This document shows, in pieces, positions 4,497-28,093 of a DNA stretch of 64,000 nucleotides. The stretch is taken from assembly GCA_000004985.1 (NCBI GenBank), contig GG738858.1, one strand, 5' to 3'. Numbering within the stretch: the stretch's first letter is position 1; each line of letters begins with the position of its first letter. The position numbers were made by a program, and so were the translations under genes. The stretch is from Naegleria gruberi. Its lineage: Eukaryota. The notes under the pieces are model-generated. The model did not search any database and was not told the origin of the DNA. It saw nothing but the letters and a program-made list of their open reading frames with translations.

Positions 4497-5873
4497 TTAA
4501 TTCTTCTTCAATAAAGCTTCAACACTTTCACGGAAAACTCTAGTATGGACATCAACATCTTCTTCAGTATGGTTAACACAAATTAAAGCCATGTTGTGGA
4601 ATGGTGTCATCAAAATACCACGATTAAGGGCATACAAGTGCATATATTGGTCCAATTCAAAGTCACAAACAGCAGCAGCTTCTCCACCATTGACTGGTTC
4701 GGTTGGTCTAAACCAATATTCAGTACGACAACCAAGACGTTTAACAATCCAAGGTAAATTGAAATCAGCAATAACCTGCTCAACACCTTCACAGAATTTC
4801 TTTGCCAGAGCAATGGTATATTCATAATTTTCTGGTGTAAGAATATTTTCCAATGTTGCACGCATTGCAGAAACTGAAAGAGCATTACCAGCCAAAGTAC
4901 CACCAATACCACCAACATCAATACCTTCAAGTTGAACAGTTTCAGATAAACGTCTGGCAACTTCGTGACTCAAACCATAAACAGCAGTTGGAACACCACT
5001 ACCAATAGCCTTACCAATAGTGAACAAATCTGGCTTTAATCCTAATTCCTTAGTCAAACCTCCTGGACCAGCAGAGATGGTATGAGTTTCGTCGATAATC
5101 AAAAGAGTACCATATTTAGTAGTGAGTTCACGGAGCTTATCTAAAAATCCTGGTTGTGGGAGAACAATACCAATGTTTGTCATGGCTGGTTCACACAAAA
5201 CAGCAGCAACATCACCAGGAGCCAAAGCTCTTTCCAAAGCTTCAACATCATTAAATTCAACAACCTTTGTGGTATTTGTTGGATTGGTTTGTGGACCAAT
5301 ATTTGTAGCACGACATTCAGCAGTAACACCATCATCAGCAAGGGTGACAAAAGCTTCATCAACAGTTCCGTGATAGCAATAGTTGAAAACAAGGATCTTT
5401 GGACGTTTGGTAATATGTCTAGCAATACGTAAAGTGAATCTGTTGGCATCAGTTGCAGAAACAGCAACTTGCCAGTATGGAAGACCAAAACGCTTCTTTA
5501 AATCATCACCAACCCAAATTGCATTTTCGTTTGGTAACATATAAGTAATACCATTATTTAATTGTTTTGAAACAAAATCAACGACAACATCAGGAGAGTG
5601 GCCAGTCATGGAACCAGTATCACCAAGGCAAAAATCGATAAATTTAACATCATCCAAGTCGGTAAAGTGACCTCCTTTAGCTTGTTTAACAAACAATGGA
5701 TGACCACCAGTCCACTTCTTCATCCAGTGCATTGGTACACCATCAAGAAGAGAGTTCTTAGCTCTTTCAAAGGCGTCACGACACTTTGGGTGATTCTTCA
5801 AGAACAAAGCTTCTTCTTCAGCATAGAGCTTCTTGAGATGTTCTCTATCGATTTGAACAAGTTGTTGAGACAT
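4497..5873 (-). CDS. Class-III PLP aminotransferase (glutamate-1-semialdehyde aminomutase-like)
   Basis: LIIDETHT and GKAIGSGVP(T)AVYG motifs typical of HemL-like class III aminotransferases; 458 aa, intronless. Confidence 0.75.
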   Translation of the reverse strand: MSQQLVQIDREHLKKLYAEEEALFLKNHPKCRDAFERAKNSLLDGVPMHWMKKWTGGHPLFVKQAKGGHFTDLDDVKFIDFCLGDTGSMTGHSPDVVVDFVSKQLNNGITYMLPNENAIWVGDDLKKRFGLPYWQVAVSATDANRFTLRIARHITKRPKILVFNYCYHGTVDEAFVTLADDGVTAECRATNIGPQTNPTNTTKVVEFNDVEALERALAPGDVAAVLCEPAMTNIGIVLPQPGFLDKLRELTTKYGTLLIIDETHTISAGPGGLTKELGLKPDLFTIGKAIGSGVPTAVYGLSHEVARRLSETVQLEGIDVGGIGGTLAGNALSVSAMRATLENILTPENYEYTIALAKKFCEGVEQVIADFNLPWIVKRLGCRTEYWFRPTEPVNGGEAAAVCDFELDQYMHLYALNRGILMTPFHNMALICVNHTEEDVDVHTRVFRESVEALLKKN

Positions 5874-5961
5874 TCGCGGCGAGAGTGTTTGGAGATTTTT
5901 TTTGGTCGATTCGGTGGAACAATTGTTTACAATTTTTCAAAACCGATTCTTCCAATATAAA

Positions 5962-7555
5962 ATGCCTACACATCAGCCAAGCGCAAGTTTCTCCAACCAC
6001 GAATCTCTGGAGATCTCTAACCCGCAAGTCTTGCCATCCACTCCAATTGCTGTTGATTGCGAAGAAAGCAATTTTTTCCAAGACCACAAGAAAAATCCAT
6101 CTAAACATTATGTAATTGTTATGGTAGGATTGCCAGCTAGAGGAAAATCCTACATTGCCAGACAGCTAACCAAATATTTGAACTGGTTGAATATTGATTG
6201 TTCAATTTTTAATGCTGGAGAGAAAAGAAGAGAAATGCTAGGAGCTGGGCAATCTTCTTTCTTCTGGGATAAGAACAATTCAGAAGGGCAAGAACAAAGA
6301 AAGAGGATTGGTCTTGTTACTCTTCAAGAGTTGATTGATTGGTTAATGTTGGATGAAACTGAAAACGAGGAATCCTCAAAGAAAATGAAATATGGTGGTG
6401 GGAATTGTGCTGAGGAATATACAAAAAGAGAGATCAAATGTGCAATTTTTGACGCAACAAACACAACCAGAGAACGAAGACAAATGATTATTGATCATTT
6501 GACAGACAAAAATCTACCAAGACCTTTGGAGCCAAATCATATTATTTTTGTGGAATCTATCTGTAACAATCCACAAATTATTGAAGCCAATGTAAGGGAT
6601 ATTAAAATCAAGTCTTCAGATTACAAAGGTGTTTCTGCAGAACAAGCAATTAACGATTTTATGCAAAGAATCAAAGCCTATGAACAAGTATATGAAACTA
6701 TTTCAGACGATGAGGAAAAGAGATTAAGTTATATTCAAATGATAGATATTGGTAAAAAATTCATCCTTAATAGAATTGGTGGATATGTACCTGGAAAAAT
6801 TAATCAGTGTTTAATGAACATTCATTTAGCTCCAAGAGTAATATGGCTTTCAAGACATGGAGAAAGTATGGATAATACAATGGGATTGTTAGGAGGAGAT
6901 TCAAACTTGACTGAAAAAGGTCAATGCTATGCTAAAGTATTATATAGATTTGTTAAGAGGATGCAAGAAGAGAGAAGGAATCAAGAAATATCAATCGAAA
7001 AACCACAATTGGACAATATGATGGTTTGGACTAGTCTTTTAAAAAGAACACAACAGACATCCTTCCATTTTAAACATGATGAAAACTTCAAAGTTGTTCG
7101 TTGGAGATGCTTAAATGAGCTAGATGCTGGCGTTTGTGAAGGAATGACATATGAAAGAGTGAAAGAAGAGCTTCCTCATGAATATGAGGCCAGAGAGGCT
7201 GACAAATTCAGATACAGACCACAAAACGGAGAAAGTTATTTAGATATGATTTATAGAATTGAACCAGCCATTGCTGAACTAGAAAGACAGAGATGCCCTC
7301 TTTTAATAATTGGTAGGTTTATTTTAGGTTTAATTTTCAATTAATCAATACTCTCAAAAAGGTCATCAAGCTGTAAATCGTATATTGTATTCATATCTCA
7401 CTGGACTACGTCCAGAAACTTGCACAAGACTTCCAATTCCATTAAACACAGTTATTGAAATAATCCCTAACGCATATGGGGTGGAGGAAAAGAGATACGA
7501 TTTAAATCAAGAGGTACAAAAAGAATACGAATTAATTATGTCTCAAAAGAAATAA
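5962..7555 (+). CDS. 6-phosphofructo-2-kinase/fructose-2,6-bisphosphatase
   Basis: GLPARGKSYIARQLTKYLNW P-loop, RHGES phosphatase motif; 2 exons (5962..7312, 7362..7555) joined across a 49-nt GT-AG intron, giving ...LLIIG-HQAVNRILYSYL; start taken as MPTHQ (the ORF-table start at 5902 lies 30 bp from the neighbouring gene's ATG). Confidence 0.85.
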
Positions 7556-7556
7556 T

Positions 7557-8552
7557 TTAATTTTTGGTCTCTTTTGAAATTTGTAAGGGAATTGGAAGAT
7601 TTCTTCTCATCATCATTTTGCTTTTTTTACATTCAGTTATTACACAAAGAGTGTGGAACCAATTATTAAATATTCCCTTATTATAGTTTCTCTTATTCTT
7701 GTTAACGTATTCATAAGTTGTTTGACCAGAAGAAATTAGAAACGAATGGAACACACTTAATGATCCAACAAAAAATTGTGAAAGGAAAATGTAAATCATA
7801 ATAATAATTCCTCCAATTGAATATCTTATTGAATTCGAAACCTTATCCAAAACCACATCATTCAAATTAAAATAATATATCCAAACTAGAACTGTGTGAG
7901 CCACACAAACCAAAATCACAAACCATGAAGTGATAGTGGTACTAAAAATAAATAATATGAATGATCTGTAGTTTCGTCTGCCAATACAAGTGCCAGTCCA
8001 AGGACAGTGATGATCAAACTTTTCTACACAATTATCACATCTCCTGCAATGAGAGGCCCTTGGGGGACGATATATTTCACACGTAGCACAGTATTTAAGC
8101 TCAACAACGTCCTTGCTGTTTAAATAAACTTTTTGGAAGGGTGGAGGTTCCATTTTTCTTGAATTGTTTTCGATTGCACCTGCAATGTTTTTGTCAAAGT
8201 ATTTTCTTCTTGGAATAATGCCTGGATCCGTAAAGCTTGTATAGAATAGGCCAACCATCATCAATATAAATCCAATCAAAGGTAAAACTAACAACACAAC
8301 CCCAACAGCAGGATGAATGAACAAAATAAAGTGTGGCATTATTACAGGGCCATAGGCTATTGCAGGGAGAAAAATTAAAACAAGTGTAATAATGAACAAT
8401 TTTCTATCGGGCCCGAGAATCAATCTTCCTTGACAACAAAGTGTATTATTTCCTATCCATCCTTCATATAACTTTAATGTTGTGTTGGCTATGATGTTTG
8501 TGGCTTCGGAATGTTCTGCATCTTGCTTTTGTTCTAACGCGACTGTGCTCAT
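7557..8552 (-). CDS. DHHC-type palmitoyltransferase
   Basis: CxxCxxxxxxRxxHCxxCxxCVxxFDHHCPW zinc-finger DHHC motif, 4 TM helices; ORF-table start 8567 is TTG, ATG at 8552. Confidence 0.85.
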   Translation of the reverse strand: MSTVALEQKQDAEHSEATNIIANTTLKLYEGWIGNNTLCCQGRLILGPDRKLFIITLVLIFLPAIAYGPVIMPHFILFIHPAVGVVLLVLPLIGFILMMVGLFYTSFTDPGIIPRRKYFDKNIAGAIENNSRKMEPPPFQKVYLNSKDVVELKYCATCEIYRPPRASHCRRCDNCVEKFDHHCPWTGTCIGRRNYRSFILFIFSTTITSWFVILVCVAHTVLVWIYYFNLNDVVLDKVSNSIRYSIGGIIIMIYIFLSQFFVGSLSVFHSFLISSGQTTYEYVNKNKRNYNKGIFNNWFHTLCVITECKKSKMMMRRNLPIPLQISKETKN

Positions 8553-8571
8553 TTTTACTCTGCACAAAAAA

Positions 8572-9411
8572 ATGGGGAAACACGCACAACTAGTGATTGG
8601 ACCTGCTGGCTCCGGAAAATCGACTTATTGCCAAACAATTCAAGAACATGGTAACAATACAAAGAGAGTTATTCATGTTGTAAATTTAGATCCTGCGGCT
8701 GAGGAGTTTAAATATCAATGTGCATTTGATATTCGTGACTTGGTAACATTGGAGGATGTCATGGAGGAGTTTCAACTTGGTCCGAACGGAGGTCTAGTTT
8801 ACTGTATGGAATATTTAATGCAAAATTTAGAAGATTGGTTCTCGGAAGAATTGAGTGATTATGAGAATGACTATTTAATCTTTGATTGTCCAGGTCAAAT
8901 TGAACTTTACAGTCATGTACCAATCATGCAGTTATTTGTAAAGGAGTTGGAACGAAGAGGATATAGGGTTTGTTGTGTCTATTGTATGGACGTACAATTT
9001 ATAGAAGATGTTACAAAATATATCAGTGGTATTACCCAGGCCCTTTCTGCAATGATTCAATTCGAGACTCCTCATGTCAATATTTTCACAAAATGTGATA
9101 CTCTAAAAGGAAATAAGGAAAGATCAAACATTTTAGAAAAGCTAAAAGTTCCTGACAAAACTGAGCTTCTCTACGCTTTAGAGAAAGAAACCAATCCCCA
9201 TAAGAGAAATTCATCTTTCTCCAAACTCAATCATGCAATTGTTTCATTAATTGACAACTTCAACATGGTTGGATTTCTTGAATTGGATATTACTGATGAA
9301 GAATCGATAGAATACATCCTCTCCTATGTTGATATGACTATTCAGTATGGTGAAGATGAAGAGGCAAAGGAACCAAAAGAAGAAACAGAAGAAAGCACTC
9401 AAGATGAATAA
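8572..9411 (+). CDS. GPN3: GPN-loop GTPase 3
   Basis: MGKHAQLVIGPAGSGKSTYC, VVNLDPAAE and GPNGG motifs; near-colinear with GPN3 over 279 aa; true ATG at 8572 (ORF-table start 8482 is not ATG). Confidence 0.9.
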   Translation: MGKHAQLVIGPAGSGKSTYCQTIQEHGNNTKRVIHVVNLDPAAEEFKYQCAFDIRDLVTLEDVMEEFQLGPNGGLVYCMEYLMQNLEDWFSEELSDYENDYLIFDCPGQIELYSHVPIMQLFVKELERRGYRVCCVYCMDVQFIEDVTKYISGITQALSAMIQFETPHVNIFTKCDTLKGNKERSNILEKLKVPDKTELLYALEKETNPHKRNSSFSKLNHAIVSLIDNFNMVGFLELDITDEESIEYILSYVDMTIQYGEDEEAKEPKEETEESTQDE

Positions 9412-9425
9412 ATTAATTCATCAGG

Positions 9426-10901
9426 TTAACTTTTTACTACGCTCTTTTTACTACATTGATTCCACCTGATGTGACTGTTCCAGTGAACCAATTTGCATGG
9501 TGATTGTATTTTGATATCTGACTGTTCCTGTTTGTGTAAGTTAGATCCTGATATTGGATCTTTACAAATATCACAAAGAACCTTAACGCCACCAGCAAAT
9601 TGTTGAAGCTCAGTTGCTAGTTCAGGTGTTATATCCGAAATATTTGAATAATTTCTGTGAATATGTAAGAGTTCTTTCTTTAGAGTCTCATTCATTGGTA
9701 ATTTTGGTAATGGTAGAGTATAAAGGAGAAGAGACATGATAATATCTAGCTTTGGAGTTTTGTAAAAAGGATATTTGGTTGAACTCGCATCTAAATGGTC
9801 TTTGATCATCTTGTACATTTCTAATTCTTTCATATTGTTGATAAGATCAAAGAAAATATACTTGTGTTGTACGCATGTGGACAATTCATTCAATAAGGTA
9901 TCACAGAATGAAAATAATAAATCTCTAACAACTCTGGATTTTGACTCCAAACCAGTAGGATTGTACATTATTGATGGAACACTGTACATACACGACTGTA
10001 TTTCAGGATCTGTTTCTCTTTCATAATCTTCTAACCTTATAATCTGATCCATGTATTCATTAAGAGTTGTTGCCTTTAGCAATTGTTCTCTTCTTGTTGG
10101 TAGATAATCATTCAATAAAAATAGACAAAATCGTCTCCAACTCATAGATGCATTTGATTTGAAGAGACGATAAAACATTGAACTTGCATTTTCAGAAGGT
10201 CTCATTGTAAAGTATCCACGCTTATTATTTGTTTGCTTGTCTATCAAAATCATGGCCTCATACAATTTCTCAACTGAAACCCAATAGGATGGATACTTGA
10301 ATCTTGCAACATCCAATAATAAAACCATATCTTCATCAGGATTATATCCTCCAATAGGACTGAAGTGGCCATCACCTGTTTGATCTAGTGCTTTTCTTGA
10401 AAAGTTTACAACAATATGAAACTTTTGATGTTTACATGAATCAATAATATGCTGTCTAAATTGTTCAATAGTACTATTTCTGAATAACTGAACATCAAGT
10501 CCAGAACAAACAGAAAGGCACCAAAATTGTTCCATCTGCAAACCTTTGGTTAATACTTGGTCTCCAGAAACACAACAATTCATTAACAGATTTTCATCAT
10601 AATATCTCCAAACACCTTTCCAAACTTGATTTGGATCACATTGTAAAGCATTTAAAATCATACTTAAACTTCCTAACCCGCAAAAAGCAGGTTCTTGTTG
10701 GGTGTGGAACTGTTCAGCTAATGAAAAATAATTTTCCATATATTGTTGTTTTAAACTTGATCTAAATAATTCTCTTCCTTTTTCCGAACTGAATGGTATT
10801 AATTTGTCAGATAATTTTCTCTTGTAAAACGAAACAGCACAAGTTGGTGCTGATTTAAAAGACCTCAAAACTTGAGTCGATTTAAATAAATTATTTGTCA
10901 T
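9426..10901 (-). CDS. Phytochelatin synthase (glutathione gamma-glutamylcysteinyltransferase)
   Basis: N-terminal catalytic domain with QQEPAFCGLGSLSMILNAL and downstream His/Asp region characteristic of PCS; 491 aa. Confidence 0.85.
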   Translation of the reverse strand: MTNNLFKSTQVLRSFKSAPTCAVSFYKRKLSDKLIPFSSEKGRELFRSSLKQQYMENYFSLAEQFHTQQEPAFCGLGSLSMILNALQCDPNQVWKGVWRYYDENLLMNCCVSGDQVLTKGLQMEQFWCLSVCSGLDVQLFRNSTIEQFRQHIIDSCKHQKFHIVVNFSRKALDQTGDGHFSPIGGYNPDEDMVLLLDVARFKYPSYWVSVEKLYEAMILIDKQTNNKRGYFTMRPSENASSMFYRLFKSNASMSWRRFCLFLLNDYLPTRREQLLKATTLNEYMDQIIRLEDYERETDPEIQSCMYSVPSIMYNPTGLESKSRVVRDLLFSFCDTLLNELSTCVQHKYIFFDLINNMKELEMYKMIKDHLDASSTKYPFYKTPKLDIIMSLLLYTLPLPKLPMNETLKKELLHIHRNYSNISDITPELATELQQFAGGVKVLCDICKDPISGSNLHKQEQSDIKIQSPCKLVHWNSHIRWNQCSKKSVVKS

Positions 10902-13376: not shown

Positions 13377-14186
13377 CTACACATAAAGCTCTGTACAGGC
13401 TTCCAAGAATTGATCAAAAGTAAAAGTAGCTTGTCCGTTTCTGTAAAAGTCTTTTGGTTGGAAAATATTTCTGACAATACCAACATAAACACAAAGTTCA
13501 ATGTATCCATCAAAATTTAAAGATCCCTTTTTTTGTGTATCAACAGTTTGGAATATCTTTTGCAACACAATTGGTGAAATTCTGTAGCCTGACTGAGCAA
13601 GTGCTCGTGAGATTTCATCAAAAGATAAACTTCCAGACTTGTCAGTATCTACAAACTCAAATCCTTGCTTCATTTGAAGTAAATATTGATGTAATTGCAT
13701 AAATTCCTCAAAATCAATTTCAGCATTATTATTCCTGTCAAACATTTTAATTAATCTTTTTGCACCTGTCAAAATTCTTGTACCTCATTCAATTAATAAA
13801 GACTTACATCTTTCACTGAAGACTTTTCCTGTAAATTCAGATCCTGGTTGAGTGAGTGCTTTTTGAAGCTCTATCCAAGTAATTTTTCCAGATCTATCCA
13901 AATCAACAGCATCAAAAAACGGTCTAAGTGGGTGAGATTGCATTTGTGGTTGATAAATACCATATTGTGATTGTTGATGGTTTCCGTATTGTTGTGGTTG
14001 CTGTTGATAACCTCCTACTTGTGGTTGCTGTGGTGGTTGATTGTAACCTCCTACTTGTGGTTGTTGATAACCACCATATTGTGGTGGAGGTTGTTGGTAA
14101 CCGCCATATTGTGGAGGTTGTTGATAGCCTCCTGTCTGTTGATAACCTTGAGGTGTGCCTTGTGGAGCTCTAAAGCTTTGATTCAT
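13377..14186 (-). CDS. Penta-EF-hand (ALG-2/peflin-like) calcium-binding protein
   Basis: N-terminal GGYQQPPQY repeats followed by EF-hands (DLDRSGKITWIELQ, DTDKSGSLSFDEI); 2 exons with a 43-nt intron near 13773-13815. Confidence 0.8.
13960..14165 (-). repeat. In-frame coding tandem repeat (GGYQQPPQ units) inside the PEF gene
   Basis: Direct repeats of ggttgctgttgataacctcctacttgtggtt-like units visible in the DNA. Confidence 0.6.
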
Positions 14187-14957: not shown

Positions 14958-15677
14958 TCAACAACTCTTGAAAAACTTTACAATAAATAAATATTCACCT
15001 TGAACCCATTTCTTTAAAACAATCTTACTTGCGAAACCTCCATTCTCTTCAAGACTAAGCAATTTCATAACCTCTTGAGGTCTATTATCTTCAATAAGAA
15101 CGAAATAAAAAACACCATCTCTTGACAAAATGTCCTTAATCATTGGAATGAATTTATCAATAACTTCTCTGCCATCAATACCACCTGCATAGGCTGCTCT
15201 GACGTCATTATGTCCCATTTCGTATTGTTCGGATGGAACATATGGTGGATTAAATATAAGTAAATCTATTTTGTTCTTCATTCTTTGTTTAAATGCTGAA
15301 TGAAAATCGGTAAGGACAACATCACAACAAATTGGGACTTGTTGTGGTGTTATCTTATTATTTTCCAATGTTTTTCTTGTCATCAAAGCAGCATTTGGAT
15401 TAATATCGGAGCAAAGTAATAAAAATGAATAAGATGCATTCATTAATTGATGATTATTGTTTAATAATTTATAAAGAAATGTTGTAACATATCCACTTCC
15501 GCTTCCTATTTCAAGACAACATTTTAATCCACATTTCGAATTGAGTAAATGATTTACAATATAATCTTTTTCCAAAGCATCCACTAACAAATAAGTATCA
15601 TCATTAAATTCATAAACAAGTTTGAAATCGGAAGTTTTCATGTGGCCCATATTGGGGTCGTTGATACTTTTTGGCAT
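14958..15677 (-). CDS. HemK/N6AMT1-family protein methyltransferase (Mtq2-like)
   Basis: FNPPYVP motif and SAM-binding LEIGSGSG; ORF-table start 15734 is GTG, first ATG at 15677. Confidence 0.75.
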   Translation of the reverse strand: MPKSINDPNMGHMKTSDFKLVYEFNDDTYLLVDALEKDYIVNHLLNSKCGLKCCLEIGSGSGYVTTFLYKLLNNNHQLMNASYSFLLLCSDINPNAALMTRKTLENNKITPQQVPICCDVVLTDFHSAFKQRMKNKIDLLIFNPPYVPSEQYEMGHNDVRAAYAGGIDGREVIDKFIPMIKDILSRDGVFYFVLIEDNRPQEVMKLLSLEENGGFASKIVLKKWVQGEYLFIVKFFKSC

Positions 15678-15708
15678 TTTTATTAATAATAATTGCAAAT
15701 ATTGTAAA

Positions 15709-16681
15709 TTATCCACAACACCCTTTCTTCCCACTTGTAGGAGAGGTGTTATTTGAAGGATTTTGAAGTTGAGATATTGGTACTAGTCCAACATTACTTG
15801 GTTTAATTTCAGAGTTTTTAGCCTTTCTTTTTTCAAATTCTTCTACAATAGTGTCAAAAATAACATCAATATTCACTCCATCCTTTGAACTTGTTACAAA
15901 ATGTTTGAATACAACTCTATGTGATGACGTGAATTCCTCTACTTGTCTTTCAGATATTACAGATTTTCCAAGATCAGATTTAGTACCAACTAGTATAATG
16001 AAACAATCCTCTGCTGGAGCACTCGTTTCCAATTTATGCACCCATTTAGAAACATTTTGAAAGGTTCCTTCCTCAATCACACTATAACAAACAAGTGCTA
16101 CATTTGTGTGACGGCAGTAGAAAGAGCTATTCCATTTGAATGAATATTTAATGAACGAATACTAACCTCAAAGAATCATATCTTTCCTATTGATGAGTTA
16201 AATGATCAAGAATTTTCAATTAGCGTCAAATCTTACCTGACCAGCTTTGATGATTGATTTAGATGAATTTTAAAGCAATTACTAACCAGTATCCCAAAGT
16301 CCTAATTCTAAATGTTTTCCGTTTTTTGTTGGAATGGCTTTCTTCAAACATGTTAATAAATTCTTTCTCTCAAATACCTACTTTAAAGAATGAAGCGCCA
16401 ATAGTGGATCTTGTATTTCCGAATGTATTATTTAAAAATCTAACCAACTTTTGATCATTGTAGATTTTTACTCGTTGATGACTTACCAAACTGATTTTTC
16501 TTAGAATATTTAAATTATTTAAAAATCATACCTGGTCTACTACAGTGTTATTGTATTTACTATTAATCCCTACCTTTCCTACACCACTGTCACCTGTTTT
16601 ATTGGTTACTCAATCAGGATTTGTTTTAAACGTACCAAGCATGACAACTTTGATGTCCACTCCTTCATTCTTTTTGCTCAT
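15709..16681 (-). CDS. Rab5-family small GTPase, multi-exon with micro-exons
   Basis: Spliced reading MSKKNEGVDIKVVMLG-DSGVGK-T-SL-LVRFLNNTFGNTRSTIGASFFKV...WDTAGQERYDSL...; the C-terminal exon is ORF 15709..16080 ending GCCG; the 5' region has five 37-42-nt GT-AG introns. Confidence 0.7.
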
Positions 16682-16691
16682 TTTTTAAAAA

Positions 16692-17513
16692 ATGTCTAAC
16701 GTTGTCTTTCATTGTTCGATAGTAAAATTGCCAGATGAAACTGTGGTTGAAAACTCCTTTGATATTGATAAACCAATACACGCCCAACTCGGAAATGGGC
16801 AATTAAAGTTTTTAGATATGGAAGAAAAACTTAGTGTGATGAATCCAGGAGAAACATGTGAGATTTTAACATTAGGAGAGGATCTTGTTAAATATAAAAT
16901 TTCCATCAAACTATTACGAAAATATTCGAGTGATGGCAATGCTACGGAATGGGATTATTCAGATGAAGAGAGCTACAATATAGCTCTAAACAAAAAAGAA
17001 GATGGCAACTTATTCTTCTCTCAAAATAAGAATATTTCAGCTTCCAGATGTTATCGAAGCGGAATTAAACATGTGAGAAGGATCTCCAAATTGAAATGGG
17101 ATTTAAATAATAGAAAGGCTAGGGATTTGTTGATCACTCTGTTCAATAATCTACTCACATGTGAGTTAAAACTTAAAAGATACTCGAATGTTGTAAAGTT
17201 TAGTACTGAATGTCTTGATAATATCGGAGAAAATGTTAAAAGTTATTACAAAAGAGGTGAGGCAAATATGAATGATGGAAATTATTCTTTGGCTAATGAA
17301 GATTTCAGAAAAGCTAAAGAGCTGCTACTCACAGTTGATTCAAATGCTGAAATTTCTGTAATCAGTAAGGTTATTACAGGCTCTCCTAAGACTATTGCAG
17401 CAGATATGTACGACAAGATGATCAAACTATTAGATTCGTCAATTCAAAAGTGCACTAAACTGGATCAAGATTACAATCAAAACATGAAAAACATGTTTAA
17501 AAAGATGTTTTAA
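16692..17513 (+). CDS. FKBP-like domain plus TPR protein (AIP/FKBP-type co-chaperone-like)
   Basis: C-terminal TPR segment KKEDGNLFFSQNK...YKRGEANMNDGNYSLANEDFRKAKELL resembles the TPR region of FKBP4/5 and AIP; N-terminal ~110 aa is PPIase-like. Confidence 0.55.
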   Translation: MSNVVFHCSIVKLPDETVVENSFDIDKPIHAQLGNGQLKFLDMEEKLSVMNPGETCEILTLGEDLVKYKISIKLLRKYSSDGNATEWDYSDEESYNIALNKKEDGNLFFSQNKNISASRCYRSGIKHVRRISKLKWDLNNRKARDLLITLFNNLLTCELKLKRYSNVVKFSTECLDNIGENVKSYYKRGEANMNDGNYSLANEDFRKAKELLLTVDSNAEISVISKVITGSPKTIAADMYDKMIKLLDSSIQKCTKLDQDYNQNMKNMFKKMF

Positions 17514-17514
17514 T

Positions 17515-18910
17515 TTAAGGACATTTTTTTGCTAAACATTGAGCAGCACCCATTTCATCAAACTCTGATTTAGAAATCCACATAGATTGAAAAGATCCTA
17601 AACTAGCAAGTATTGATCCACCAATGAATGAAGCATACTTTCTTTCTTGTAGTTGAGCCACTGCTGTTTGCATTGTTGATTGGGTTGAGGAGTTACCCAT
17701 AGATGTGGAAAGTGTGTGAATATTTGCAGATATTTTTGTGTTGAGTGGATGTTTAACTTTAACATTATTTGGCGCCATTCTTATTAATTCGTGTTCATAC
17801 CTTGTTGGTACACCAGGAATTAATGTATTTCCACCAACTAACAAAATATTTGAATATAATTCCTTCCTAAGATCCACGTCACATTTGTTGATAGAATCAC
17901 ATGTCAATTTTGCAAGTCCATATTCATGGTTGAATAAACGTTCACAAATTGAGAATCTTTCAAGACCAATTTCAATATCGTTTCCATCATTTAACTCAAA
18001 GCTCACAAGTGGTGTGTTTCCTGTTTGAACAGCTCCATCCTCTGATGCTCTTAGTAGATTGATCTTCATGTCTCCAACAATTCTGTTGATTGAATAATCA
18101 TTAAAAGATTGTGTTAATCCGTCAATATGGTGTTCTACAATTTTAGTGGATTTGGAGCTTGGTTGTTGAGAGCTTCTTTGCTTAGTAAATTGATGAGGAG
18201 CAAGGATGTCCTTACCTCCCCTCTTTGTTTTAACTAGATTTCTTAGATCTTCGTCCAATACTTTTCCACAAACTTTAGTAGTTTTGATTGTGCTTTGACG
18301 AAGAGCCAAACCGTCATGCACAGATGTGACAGTTGTAGCATTATGACCACTGTCAACAACTAGGGCTGTGTATTTTCCATTTGCAAAACAGCTTAAAACT
18401 GGTTGTTTGGACAAGAAAAAACTTGGAATATTACATTTCTCAAAAACTAGAGATGCTAACTTTTCTCTTCCTGATGAAGAACAAAGAGGATCTTCTGACA
18501 TTAAAAGTGGGTGTTCGTTCGGTTTCACACCTAGTCTTTCGTCATAAATATAATTTAAAGCCTTCTCAAAATAATCAATGTTTTGAACTAAACTTCAATA
18601 AGTCAAATAATAATAAATTATCAACATACTCTCTCCAGTATCTGAATTAAAGATGTTTTGTACTTCCATGCCAGGCCTTGCGAAGGAAATTTCCTTGTTA
18701 CCCACATAATAGCTAGAAATTTTTGATTTATCATCACTGTCAAATACAGTACCAATCACCTAGTAATGTTGGTTAGAAATAGAATCTCGGAAAACTTACT
18801 GATGGGATGATCGCCTTTGGATTTTCTTCTCCTGCAAATCCAGCTTTAATTGTGTGAGTACCGACATCAATAACAACGGCTCCAACCTCGTCTCCACCAA
18901 AAGTGTTCAT
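17515..18910 (-). CDS. Actin-related protein Arp4/ACTL6 (BAF53)-like
   Basis: 3 exons (41- and 43-nt introns): MNTFGGDEVGAVVIDVGTHTIKAGFAG...; actin fold motifs (LVVDSGHN, ILLVGGNT), Arp4-like C-terminus ...LAKKCP. Confidence 0.75.
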
Positions 18911-19036
18911 GATTGTTGTTTGATGATTTAATAATTTACACTATAGTTGATTGTTGCAGAAAATTGAGACGACCCACTAGTGTGTAGTTCTTGGGTGTAT
19001 TTTTTATTTATTTTTATCTTAAAAAATTTAAATCAA

Positions 19037-27475: not shown

Positions 27476-28093
27476 ATGGGATTTGAATTTAGAAGATTTA
27501 AACCACTCACTTCCGAAGAGTTTCATCACAACTTTACTGAATATCAAAAAATGGAAGAGAAAAATGATGTGTATTTAATTGTTGTGGATAAGGAGGGAAA
27601 TAGTGTTATTCCCGAAACTATTGGAATTAAACTTGCTTACATGTCACAATTTGAAATTAAAATTCGTAAAAAGAGAAAGAAATCTGGCATTGAAAAATGG
27701 AAGAAAATTCACTGTTTTTCAGAGAAGGTTGATTTATCTGATCAGGATAATCTACTCAAGAGTATAGAGAACCAATTAAAGATGAATCAAGTTTCGGATC
27801 TGGCACTCAGTTCAAATCATCACAGGGTTGTCTCAGCTAAAACTTGTAAAATTAGAAGAAATTATAGAAATTATGAGATTGCTTTCTTTTCATTGAAATT
27901 TGAGGATATGAACGAAACTCTTTATTTTAAATCAGTAAATATTGAGGGAGAGAAAAAGTTTAAAAAAATTGATAAGCAACTAGTTGAAAAGGATCTACCA
28001 CTCTCATCTCAGGATGCTCAGGTTTTAACTTGTGGTTATCCAGAATTGCTTTTAAGGAAATATTTGAGTGTAAAATCAAATATTCTAAATTAA
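27476..28093 (+). CDS. Hypothetical protein
   Basis: 205-aa ORF with an aaaaATG context; no recognisable domain. Confidence 0.4.
   Translation: MGFEFRRFKPLTSEEFHHNFTEYQKMEEKNDVYLIVVDKEGNSVIPETIGIKLAYMSQFEIKIRKKRKKSGIEKWKKIHCFSEKVDLSDQDNLLKSIENQLKMNQVSDLALSSNHHRVVSAKTCKIRRNYRNYEIAFFSLKFEDMNETLYFKSVNIEGEKKFKKIDKQLVEKDLPLSSQDAQVLTCGYPELLLRKYLSVKSNILN

What the first reader, a model, noticed from the sequence alone, without database searches (positions are those of the whole stretch)
16670..16700. Head-to-head genes whose start codons sit 10 bp apart inside a perfect palindrome CATTTTTTAAAAAATG
The Rab gene (minus) starts with the ATG complementary to 16679-16681, and the FKBP/TPR gene (plus) starts at 16692. 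Both ATGs are the ends of the 16-nt palindrome CATTTTTTAAAAAATG, so each gene has the favoured aaaaATG context and no room remains for separate promoters or 5' UTRs. The DHHC (ATG 8552, minus) and GPN3 (ATG 8572, plus) pair is separated by 19 bp (CATttttactctgcacaaaaaaATG). The aminotransferase and PFK2 starts are 88 bp apart. Either the 5' UTRs are near-leaderless or only a few nt long, or transcription initiates inside the neighbouring coding region.
Basis: seen in the sequence. Interest (0 to 1): 0.6.

Follow-up and report, generated by a model that had tools for sequence, protein, structure and literature searches.

The report
Two Naegleria genes starting 10 bp apart
In the amoeba Naegleria gruberi, two real genes on opposite strands begin only 10 bases apart; the palindrome there is a by-product of the species' A-rich start-codon context, and each gene's promoter must lie on the other gene's coding DNA, as already known in Giardia and microsporidia.

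Summary
CATTTTTTAAAAAATG sits at 16679-16694. It is bounded by the start codon of a Rab GTPase gene (minus strand, ATG at 16681) and that of an AIP-like FKBP/TPR gene (plus strand, ATG at 16692). The DHHC/GPN3 spacer (19 nt) and the aminotransferase/PFK2 spacer (88 nt) are also as described.

The window is Naegleria gruberi. Both focal ATGs are the true starts. Each has an in-frame TAA two codons upstream. The Rab N-terminus is conserved in N. fowleri, N. lovaniensis and Willaertia. Conserved FKBP codons lie upstream of the next Met.

The palindrome carries no signal of its own:
- 15 of 32 other starts in the window have AAAAA-ATG, so two abutting contexts give it about 22% of the time.
- T5A5 is not enriched in the window.
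- Its RNA hairpin is negligible (-0.5 kcal/mol).

The Rab/FKBP head-to-head pair is conserved in the genus, but the spacer is 157 nt in N. fowleri, 60 nt in N. lovaniensis and 10 nt in N. gruberi, which also lost about 17-21 N-terminal FKBP codons.

ATG depletion upstream of 67 starts is confined to about 20-30 nt, which implies short leaders. Upstream ATGs cap the leaders of the focal pair at about 30-38 nt.

Transcription start sites could not be tested. This is an ordinary extreme of genome compaction, and of modest interest.

The parts
16679..16694 (.). 16-nt perfect palindrome CATTTTTTAAAAAATG. Both start codons plus the 10-nt T5A5 spacer (16682-16691).
   Evidence: Read directly. Single exact copy in the window. 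T5A5 is not enriched. The RNA hairpin is only -0.5 kcal/mol.
15709..16681 (-). Rab-family small GTPase gene. It has 9 exons and 8 introns of 32-50 nt. Exon 1 is 16681-16636 (MSKKNEGVDIKVVMLG). The stop is at 15711-15709.
   Evidence: Splice model. Homologs, and the N. gruberi annotation XP_002679389.1, use the same ATG. An in-frame TAA lies 2 codons upstream.
16692..17513 (+). AIP/AIPL1-like FKBP-TPR protein gene. Single exon, 273 codons, N-terminally shorter than its orthologs.
   Evidence: ORF. Orthologs are 47-56% identical. The profile matches AIPL1/AIP at E 7e-21. Pfam hits to FKBP_C and TPR are weak. The exact product is absent from the protein collection.
16641..16688 (+). Potential 15-codon uORF, antisense to Rab exon 1. 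It is in frame with the FKBP ATG and ends 3 nt before it. A second ATG lies at 16653. Together these cap an AUG-free FKBP leader at 38 nt.
16710..16712 (-). Nearest upstream ATG for the Rab gene (-31, out of frame). It opens a uORF that overlaps the Rab start and caps an AUG-free Rab leader at 30 nt.
7557..8552 (-). DHHC palmitoyltransferase gene, 331 codons.
   Evidence: Pfam DHHC 8.9e-39. Translation. There is no in-frame ATG upstream within the ORF.
8553..8571 (.). 19-nt spacer between the DHHC and GPN3 start codons.
8572..9411 (+). GPN-loop GTPase 3 gene, 279 codons.
   Evidence: 100% identical over its full length to the annotated N. gruberi GPN3. Pfam 2.7e-79.
4497..5873 (-). Class-III aminotransferase gene.
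   Evidence: Pfam 2.3e-41.
5874..5961 (.). 88-nt spacer between the aminotransferase and PFK2 start codons.
5962..7344 (+). 6-phosphofructo-2-kinase / fructose-2,6-bisphosphatase gene.
   Evidence: Pfam 6PF2K 8.5e-71 and His_Phos_1 1.1e-22.
15678..15708 (.). 31-nt tandem spacer between the Rab stop codon and the ATG (15677) of the downstream methyltransferase gene (14958-15677, minus strand).
17514..17514 (.). Single base separating the FKBP/TPR stop (17511-17513) from the stop of the convergent actin-related gene (17515-18910, minus strand).
18911..19036 (.). 126-nt spacer of the next head-to-head pair: actin-related gene (ATG 18910, minus) and longin/synaptobrevin gene (ATG 19037, plus). The same pair has a 33-nt spacer in N. 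lovaniensis.

Best explanation
This is a genuine head-to-head gene pair in Naegleria gruberi, a Rab GTPase gene and an AIP-like FKBP/TPR gene, with the intergenic spacer reduced to 10 bp.

How it arose:
- The pair is ancestral to the genus Naegleria.
- In the N. gruberi lineage, about 100-200 bp were lost. This covered the old spacer and about 17-21 poorly conserved N-terminal codons of the FKBP gene.
- That left two A5-ATG translation-start contexts back to back. Their juxtaposition produces the palindrome automatically.

How it most likely works (inferred, not shown):
- Naegleria mRNA leaders are short, mostly about 20-30 nt or less.
- Each gene therefore starts transcription in the A/T tract or within roughly the first ten codons of its partner. 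For Rab the window is 16682-16711; for FKBP it is 16654-16691.
- An RNA polymerase II pre-initiation complex contacts some 30-40 bp upstream of its start site. Each gene's core promoter must therefore lie on the other gene's 5' coding DNA. The result is an interleaved, shared bidirectional promoter region.
- The 3' ends are equally squeezed, with 1 nt to the convergent neighbour of the FKBP gene and 31 nt from the Rab stop to the next gene's ATG. Transcripts of adjacent genes must overlap.
For: Shown here:
- The coordinates and both ATGs, each with an in-frame stop two codons upstream.
- The organism is N. gruberi; GPN3 is 100% identical to the annotated protein.
- The Rab start is shared by the N. 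gruberi annotation and by orthologs. Differences in the VDIKVV codons are synonymous.
- FKBP residues 4-40 are conserved upstream of the next Met. There is no AG dinucleotide between the upstream stop and the conserved VVFH codons, so no upstream exon is possible.
- Head-to-head Rab/FKBP synteny, with spacers of 157 nt in N. fowleri, 60 nt in N. lovaniensis and 10 nt in N. gruberi.
- Willaertia and a metagenome relative lack the adjacency and carry longer FKBP N-termini.
- The A-rich start context is general. AAAAA-ATG precedes 15 of 32 other starts.
- Other very short spacers exist: 19, 88 and 126 nt for divergent pairs, 1 and 14 nt for convergent pairs, 31 nt for a tandem pair. N. lovaniensis has a 33-nt divergent spacer.
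- ATG is depleted relative to its letter permutations only within about 20-30 nt upstream of 67 heterolobosean starts: 1 observed against 6.4 in -1..-20, and no depletion beyond -31.
- The nearest upstream ATGs lie at -31 for Rab and at -39 and -51 for FKBP.

Precedents:
- Giardia has AT-rich initiators, leaders of about 3-25 nt and inherently bidirectional promoters (PMC1885649).
- E. cuniculi has 5' UTRs shorter than 7 nt and overlapping transcription (PMC2803860).
Against: - No transcription start site, RNA-seq or EST evidence could be reached for any of these genes.
- The FKBP/TPR product, and my DHHC model, are absent from the protein collection. They are either unannotated or modelled differently in N. 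gruberi, so expression of the FKBP gene is not shown.
- The upstream-ATG argument assumes conventional cap-dependent scanning. It rests on 67 starts, half of them automatic annotations from relatives, and its significance is modest (Poisson p of about 0.01 for -1..-20, my arithmetic from the counts).
- The pre-initiation complex footprint is taken from general knowledge of other eukaryotes, not measured in Naegleria.
- Whether the 10-nt state is derived was inferred only from the longer N-termini of outgroup proteins.
Confidence: 0.7

Rival explanations
1. The T5A5 tract is itself a symmetric, self-sufficient bidirectional initiator. Transcription would start at the T-to-A junction on each strand, giving capped mRNAs with about 5-nt all-A leaders. 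Naegleria would then routinely translate near-leaderless mRNAs.
For: - Many starts in the window and in relatives show TT(T/G)A5-9ATG, with the tract beginning 8-14 nt before the ATG.
- No ATG occurs within 20 nt upstream of the 32 window starts.
- In Giardia, transcription starts inside the AT-rich tract next to the ATG. Microsporidia have leaders of 1-7 nt.
- The deletion in N. gruberi removed the whole ancestral spacer, yet the FKBP ORF stayed intact.
Against: - The 12-15-fold enrichment of TTTAAAAA and TTGAAAAA upstream of starts matches that of every other xA-run word. It reflects the A-run, not a T/A junction motif.
- The base before the A-run is T in only about half of the cases, as composition predicts (my count from the listing).
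- T5A5 is not enriched in the window, and its other three copies do not precede any gene start identified here.
- Some starts have no A-tract at all.
- No TSS data exist.
Confidence: 0.18
2. Transcription of one or both genes starts deep inside the neighbour's coding region or introns, more than 40 nt upstream. The two mRNAs would then have long, mutually antisense 5' UTRs that contain upstream ORFs.
For: - There is no non-coding room for a conventional promoter.
- Microsporidia and Giardia produce transcripts that start in or run across neighbouring genes.
- A TTTTAAAC tract lies in Rab intron 1, about 67 nt upstream of the FKBP ATG.
Against: - Such leaders would carry upstream AUGs. For FKBP this is a 15-codon uORF from -51 ending 3 nt before the start. 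For Rab it is an out-of-frame uORF from -31 that overlaps the start.
- For GPN3, in-frame ATGs at -78 and -81 would add an N-terminal extension that no ortholog has.
- ATG depletion across 67 starts stops at about -30.
Confidence: 0.1
3. The tight spacing is tolerated because the FKBP/TPR gene is no longer functional or expressed in N. gruberi. On this view it is a recently truncated, decaying gene, and only the Rab gene needs a promoter.
For: - No N. gruberi protein matching this ORF is in the searched collection.
- The N-terminus is 16-50 residues shorter than in orthologs and lacks the GD of the conserved GDxVVFH.
- Pfam FKBP_C and TPR scores fall below the curated cut-offs.
Against: - The ORF has 273 intact codons in a 33% G+C genome. 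The chance of no stop in unconstrained sequence is about 6e-10 (my calculation from base composition).
- It is 56% identical to the N. lovaniensis ortholog, with 80 invariant columns across five sequences and a fully conserved C-terminal half.
- The N-terminal extension in orthologs is itself unconserved low-complexity sequence.
- The DHHC/GPN3 pair shows that a 19-nt spacing also occurs between two plainly functional conserved genes.
Confidence: 0.06

Closest known systems
Giardia lamblia AT-rich core promoters (initiator-like tract at the start site, very short 5' UTRs, inherent bidirectionality; PMC1885649)
   Same: - A compact protist genome with an A/T tract immediately before the ATG.
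- Head-to-head genes served by one short region.
- Leaders of a few to about 25 nt, so promoter function must sit next to or over coding DNA.
   Different: - The documented Giardia ran/phd pair has a 153-bp spacer, against 10 bp here.
- Giardia has a reduced and divergent set of general transcription factors; whether Naegleria does was not examined here.
- No TSS or reporter data exist for this locus.
- A second AT-rich element about 30 bp upstream is not evident here, because those positions are coding sequence.
Microsporidian (Encephalitozoon cuniculi) gene expression: 5' UTRs under 7 nt, promoter signals abutting the start codon, overlapping and read-through transcripts (PMC2803860)
   Same: Intergenic spacers are too short for separate promoters or UTRs. 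Start-proximal signals and overlap of neighbouring transcripts are implied.
   Different: - Naegleria is a free-living amoeboflagellate, not a reduced intracellular parasite.
- This locus is intron-rich: the Rab gene has 8 introns.
- The start-proximal signal here is an A-run, not the CCC-like or AAATTT motifs.
- Nothing has been measured here.
Shared bidirectional promoters of head-to-head gene pairs in yeast and mammals, including poly(dA:dT) tracts acting in both directions (e.g. yeast HIS3-PET56; from my own knowledge)
   Same: Two divergent protein-coding genes with conserved adjacency, and a homopolymeric A:T tract between them that could disfavour nucleosomes for both.
   Different: - In those systems the two start sites are typically 100-1000 bp apart and the tract lies upstream of both.
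- Here the whole ATG-to-ATG distance is 10 bp, so the start sites must abut or cross.
- Spacer length is not conserved across Naegleria species (10, 60 and 157 nt).

Membership tests
Head-to-head gene pair with a shared (bidirectional) promoter region | Two protein-coding genes on opposite strands with adjacent 5' ends (under 1 kb apart). | tested here: met
   The ATGs are 10 nt apart, and both genes are supported by homology.
Head-to-head gene pair with a shared (bidirectional) promoter region | The arrangement is conserved in related species. | tested here: met
   The Rab(-)/FKBP(+) adjacency is present in N. lovaniensis and N. fowleri and absent in Willaertia. By contrast, the DHHC/GPN3 adjacency is not conserved.
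Head-to-head gene pair with a shared (bidirectional) promoter region | Mapped divergent transcription start sites, or co-expression from the shared region. | not testable with these tools
   No transcript or TSS data could be reached. Exact-product look-ups found no N. gruberi contigs. The metagenome scans were empty. The literature searches found nothing.
Giardia-type AT-rich initiator with an ultrashort leader | An A/T-rich tract containing the start site within a few nt of the ATG. | tested here: inconclusive
   The tract is present, and A-runs before the ATG are general. The start site is unknown. ATG depletion suggests leaders of about 20-30 nt or less.
Giardia-type AT-rich initiator with an ultrashort leader | A second AT-rich (TATA-like) element about 30 bp upstream. 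| tested here: inconclusive
   The -30 regions are the partner's coding sequence. The one upstream of FKBP is pyrimidine-rich (ATTCTTTTTG), and the one upstream of Rab is not AT-rich.
Near-leaderless eukaryotic mRNA | A 5' UTR shorter than about 10 nt on the mature mRNA. | not testable with these tools
   This requires 5' RACE, CAGE or direct RNA sequencing.
Rab family small GTPase | Ras-type GTPase domain with P-loop GDSGVGKT, WDTAGQE, a TKxD motif and a C-terminal CC prenylation motif. | tested here: met
   All motifs are present in the spliced product. Homologs carry PF00071, and the N. gruberi entry is annotated as a Rab.
AIP/AIPL1-like FKBP-TPR co-chaperone | An N-terminal FKBP-type domain followed by a TPR domain. 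| tested here: inconclusive
   A profile of the five orthologs matches AIPL1 (8eoa_C) in both domains, with E 7.4e-21 overall and 1.4e-4 for the FKBP-like part. The single-sequence Pfam scores for FKBP_C (19.1, cut-off 21.1) and TPR_2 (19.3, cut-off 27) are below cut-off. The N. gruberi protein starts at the equivalent of AIPL1 residue ~53, so the FKBP-like domain is truncated.
GPN-loop GTPase 3 | A full-length ATP_bind_1 domain with an N-terminal GPxGSGKST motif. | tested here: met
   Pfam 2.7e-79 over profile positions 1-240. 100% identical to the annotated N. gruberi GPN3, with orthologs of 277-282 aa.
DHHC palmitoyltransferase | A DHHC cysteine-rich domain. | tested here: met
   Pfam 8.9e-39. 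The DHHC motif is visible in the translation.

The most novel reading that the evidence does not exclude
The 10-bp T5A5 tract is a complete, symmetric bidirectional initiator. RNA polymerase II would start at the T/A junction on both strands, giving two capped mRNAs with about 5-nt poly(A) leaders. That would mean a free-living heterolobosean routinely translates near-leaderless mRNAs and needs no dedicated non-coding promoter DNA, with all upstream promoter contacts made on the partner gene's codons.
Probability: 0.15. Interest if true: 0.6.

Novelty: new member of a known kind. Interest (0 to 1): 0.35.

Why it matters
If start-site mapping confirms it, this locus would be a natural minimal case for asking how little non-coding DNA a eukaryotic RNA polymerase II promoter needs. 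Two conserved genes would be expressed from 10 bp of spacer, with each promoter written over the other gene's first codons.

It would also extend ultrashort leaders and interleaved promoters from reduced parasites (Giardia, microsporidia) to a free-living, intron-rich amoeboflagellate.

There is a practical side. Tight spacing like this appears to defeat automatic annotation. The FKBP/TPR gene has no matching N. gruberi protein in the collection, and the published Rab model is mis-spliced. The A5-ATG context and the short-leader rule could guide re-annotation and the design of expression constructs for Naegleria.

Tried and rejected
- **T-run/A-run promoter motif.** TTTAAAAA and TTGAAAAA are 12-15-fold enriched in the 80 nt upstream of starts. 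Every other xA-run word is enriched to the same degree, the base before the A-run is T only as often as composition predicts, and T5A5 is not enriched in the window. I dropped it as a distinct motif.
- **T5A5 as a conventional TATA box at -30.** Rejected. Start sites 30 nt downstream would fall inside both coding regions, upstream of codons that are conserved as protein.
- **RNA hairpin sequestering the AUG.** The hairpin is -0.5 kcal/mol and the flanks fold no better than shuffles.
- **Internal start codons or an upstream exon.** Rejected on conservation, on the in-frame stops and on the absence of any AG acceptor.
- **Direct transcript evidence.** Exact-product look-ups for the N. gruberi FKBP and GPN3 genes found no contigs. 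The Logan and ENA contigs found for N. fowleri are 5-49 kb and carry several genes on both strands, so they read as genomic DNA rather than transcripts.
- **Metagenome scans.** One with the exact 27-mer and one with the FKBP alignment; both found nothing.
- **Literature.** Nine of ten searches found no Naegleria TSS, 5' UTR or core-promoter data. The 1988 alpha-tubulin paper is held only as abstract and references.
- **MAFFT alignment of the three spacers.** It aligned Rab exon 1 well but misplaced the N. gruberi FKBP side because of the large deletion. I computed the distances by hand.
Full report
**1. The observation**

The sequence is as described. CATTTTTTAAAAAATG occupies 16679-16694. CAT at 16679-16681 is the complement of the first codon of a minus-strand gene. 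ATG at 16692-16694 opens a 273-codon plus-strand ORF that ends at 17513. The spacer is 10 nt, TTTTTAAAAA.

The second pair is also correct. The DHHC gene starts at 8552 on the minus strand and GPN3 at 8572 on the plus strand, 19 nt apart. The aminotransferase (5873, minus) and PFK2 (5962, plus) starts are 88 nt apart.

Pfam confirms GPN3 (2.7e-79), DHHC (8.9e-39), the class-III aminotransferase (2.3e-41) and 6PF2K (8.5e-71).

**2. Organism and gene models**

The GPN3 product is 100% identical over its full length to the annotated Naegleria gruberi protein. It is 91% identical to the N. fowleri and N. lovaniensis orthologs and 81% identical to that of Willaertia magna. The window is therefore N. 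gruberi nuclear DNA at about 33% G+C.

The Rab gene runs from 16681 to 15709 and has eight GT-AG introns of 32-50 nt, with micro-exons of 4-8 nt. Its product has GDSGVGKT, WDTAGQE and a C-terminal GCCG.

The annotated N. gruberi Rab (XP_002679389.1, 185 aa) begins with the same MSKKNEGVDIKVVMLGDSGVGK but skips the switch-I exons.

The plus-strand ORF has four homologs at E of 0.001 or better, in N. lovaniensis, N. fowleri, Willaertia and one metagenome contig, at 47-56% identity. No N. gruberi entry is among them, and the exact sequence is not in the 15-billion-sequence collection. A profile of the five sequences matches AIPL1, AIP and FKBP4/5 (best E 7.4e-21, both domains).

**3. Are the two ATGs the real starts?**

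Yes, as far as sequence evidence can show.
- Each ATG has an in-frame TAA two codons upstream.
- For the Rab gene, the N-terminus is MSKKNEGVDIKVVMLG in N. gruberi, MSNNKKSGEVDIKVVMLG in N. lovaniensis, MSNTKKTGDVDIKVVMLG in N. fowleri and MATKGRDVDIKVVMLG in Willaertia.
- The VDIKVV codons differ only at synonymous third positions. They are therefore translated, and the next Met (M14) cannot be the start.
- For the FKBP/TPR gene, invariant residues F6, I10, E20, D26, P28, G34, Q37 and F40 lie before the next Met at position 43.
- There is no AG dinucleotide between the upstream stop and the conserved VVFH codons, which rules out an upstream exon.
- GPN3 starts exactly where all its orthologs do.
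- The DHHC ORF has no other in-frame ATG upstream, and its next Met lies at residue 72, well inside the protein.

**4. Is the palindrome meaningful?**

No.
- In 32 window starts, A occupies 78-88% of positions -1 to -5 and 59% of positions -6 and -7.
- Exactly AAAAA precedes 15 of 32 other starts. Two starts 10 nt apart will therefore form this perfect palindrome about 22% of the time.
- T5A5 occurs four times in the window against 1.9 expected. The other three copies do not precede any gene start identified here.
- As RNA the hairpin is worth -0.5 kcal/mol.
- The apparent enrichment of TTTAAAAA and TTGAAAAA upstream of starts is shared by all xA-run words, so it reflects the A-run itself.

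**5. Evolution of the spacing**

The Rab(-)/FKBP(+) pair is conserved in N. lovaniensis and N. fowleri, together with the convergent actin-related gene and the HAT-repeat gene further downstream. The ATG-to-ATG spacer is 60 nt in N. lovaniensis and 157 nt in N. fowleri.

I measured from the Rab start codon to the conserved GTT of VVFH. The gap is 19 nt in N. gruberi, 117 nt in N. lovaniensis and 226 nt in N. fowleri.

Orthologs carry 16-50 extra N-terminal residues, which are unconserved and His/Gln-rich. Willaertia and the metagenome relative have long N-termini and a different upstream neighbour.

The most economical reading is a deletion of about 100-200 bp in the N. gruberi lineage. It would have removed the spacer and the dispensable N-terminal codons.

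Spacer length is not conserved at other loci either. The actin-related/longin pair is 126 nt apart in N. gruberi but 33 nt in N. lovaniensis. The DHHC/GPN3 adjacency is specific to N. gruberi.

**6. Context: the whole neighbourhood is squeezed**

| Arrangement | Genes or positions | Spacer |
|---|---|---|
| Convergent | FKBP stop / actin-related stop | 1 nt |
| Convergent | GPN3 / phytochelatin synthase | 14 nt |
| Convergent | two ORFs at 28090-28093 | overlap |
| Tandem | Rab stop to methyltransferase ATG | 31 nt |
| Divergent | window pairs | 10, 19, 88, 126, then about 220-840 nt (upper bounds) |

The 10-nt case is the tail of a continuous distribution, not a separate class.

**7. Where can transcription start?**

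This could not be measured. Two indirect constraints apply.

First, across 67 start codons from the window and the relatives' loci, ATG is depleted relative to its five letter permutations only close to the start. There is 1 ATG against 6.4 expected in -1..-20, 4 against 6.8 in -21..-30, and no depletion beyond -31 (window alone). This suggests that most leaders are shorter than about 20-30 nt.

Second, at the focal pair the nearest upstream ATGs cap AUG-free leaders at 30 and 38 nt:
- For Rab, the ATG at -31 is out of frame and opens a uORF that overlaps the start.
- For FKBP, the ATGs at -39 and -51 belong to an in-frame uORF, 16641-16688, that ends 3 nt before the start.

Whichever start site is used, general knowledge of RNA polymerase II pre-initiation complexes applies: they contact roughly 30-40 bp upstream of the start. 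That places each gene's core promoter on the partner's first codons. This last step is inference.

**8. Comparison with known systems**

The closest mechanistic precedents are two.
- Giardia has an AT-rich initiator at the ATG, leaders of about 3-25 nt, inherently bidirectional promoters and a 153-bp ran/phd head-to-head unit (PMC1885649).
- Encephalitozoon cuniculi has 5' UTRs under 7 nt, start-proximal signals and overlapping transcripts (PMC2803860).

In the searched library I found no description of transcription start sites, leader lengths or core promoters for Naegleria. One paper notes possible problems with TSS annotation in Naegleria (PMC12695648).

**9. Verdict**

The palindrome is a by-product.

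The finding is a new example, in a free-living heterolobosean, of a known kind of extreme head-to-head compaction. The mechanism is still untested. Interest is modest (0.35). It would rise if start-site mapping showed about 5-nt leaders from the T/A junction.

Noticed in passing
window 15709-16681 (minus strand): The Rab gene has eight introns of 32-50 nt and micro-exons of 5 nt (ACCAG, 16536-16532), 8 nt (16244-16237) and probably 4 nt (TTTG, 16490-16487). An alternative acceptor 9 nt upstream would give a 13-nt exon and an RKI insertion that orthologs lack. The published model XP_002679389.1 (185 aa) skips the switch-I exons.
   Followed up: partly
window 16692-17513 (plus strand) and 7557-8552 (minus strand): The AIP-like FKBP/TPR ORF has no matching N. 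gruberi protein in the 5.8-billion-cluster collection. The exact 331-aa DHHC product is also absent. Both tightly packed genes appear to be unannotated or modelled differently in the public N. gruberi gene set.
   Followed up: partly
window 17511-17517: The stop codons of the convergent FKBP/TPR and actin-related genes are separated by a single base, so their 3' UTRs must run antisense into each other's coding regions. Similar cases: 9411/9426 (14 nt), 47968/47975 (6 nt), and an overlap at 28090-28093.
   Followed up: no
window 15678-15708: Only 31 nt separate the Rab stop from the ATG of the next same-strand gene, a methyltransferase (14958-15677). The only AATAAA lies at about 15681-15686, directly before that ATG, so the Rab poly(A) site probably falls inside the methyltransferase coding region.
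   Followed up: no
window 8491-8571 (plus strand): The GPN3 reading frame stays open upstream into the DHHC coding region, with in-frame ATGs at -78 and -81 (8494, 8491). A transcript starting that far upstream would encode a 26-27-residue N-terminal extension that no ortholog has.
   Followed up: partly
window 13377-14186 (minus strand): Two same-frame ORFs are separated by a single stop. The upstream one is a Gly/Tyr/Gln/Pro-rich repeat region and the downstream one is EF-hand-like. Together they look like one penta-EF-hand (ALG-2/peflin-like) gene with a small stop-containing intron at the junction.
   Followed up: no
L006 7292-7324 (N. lovaniensis): The actin-related and longin/synaptobrevin genes are head to head with a 33-nt spacer (GACGACAATATTTTTTTTTTAAACTTTTAAAAA). 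This is much tighter than the 126 nt at the same pair in N. gruberi, so the tightest spacer falls at different loci in different species.
   Followed up: yes
window 9426-10901 (minus strand): A full-length phytochelatin synthase gene (Pfam 4.1e-87) lies 14 nt from the end of GPN3.
   Followed up: no
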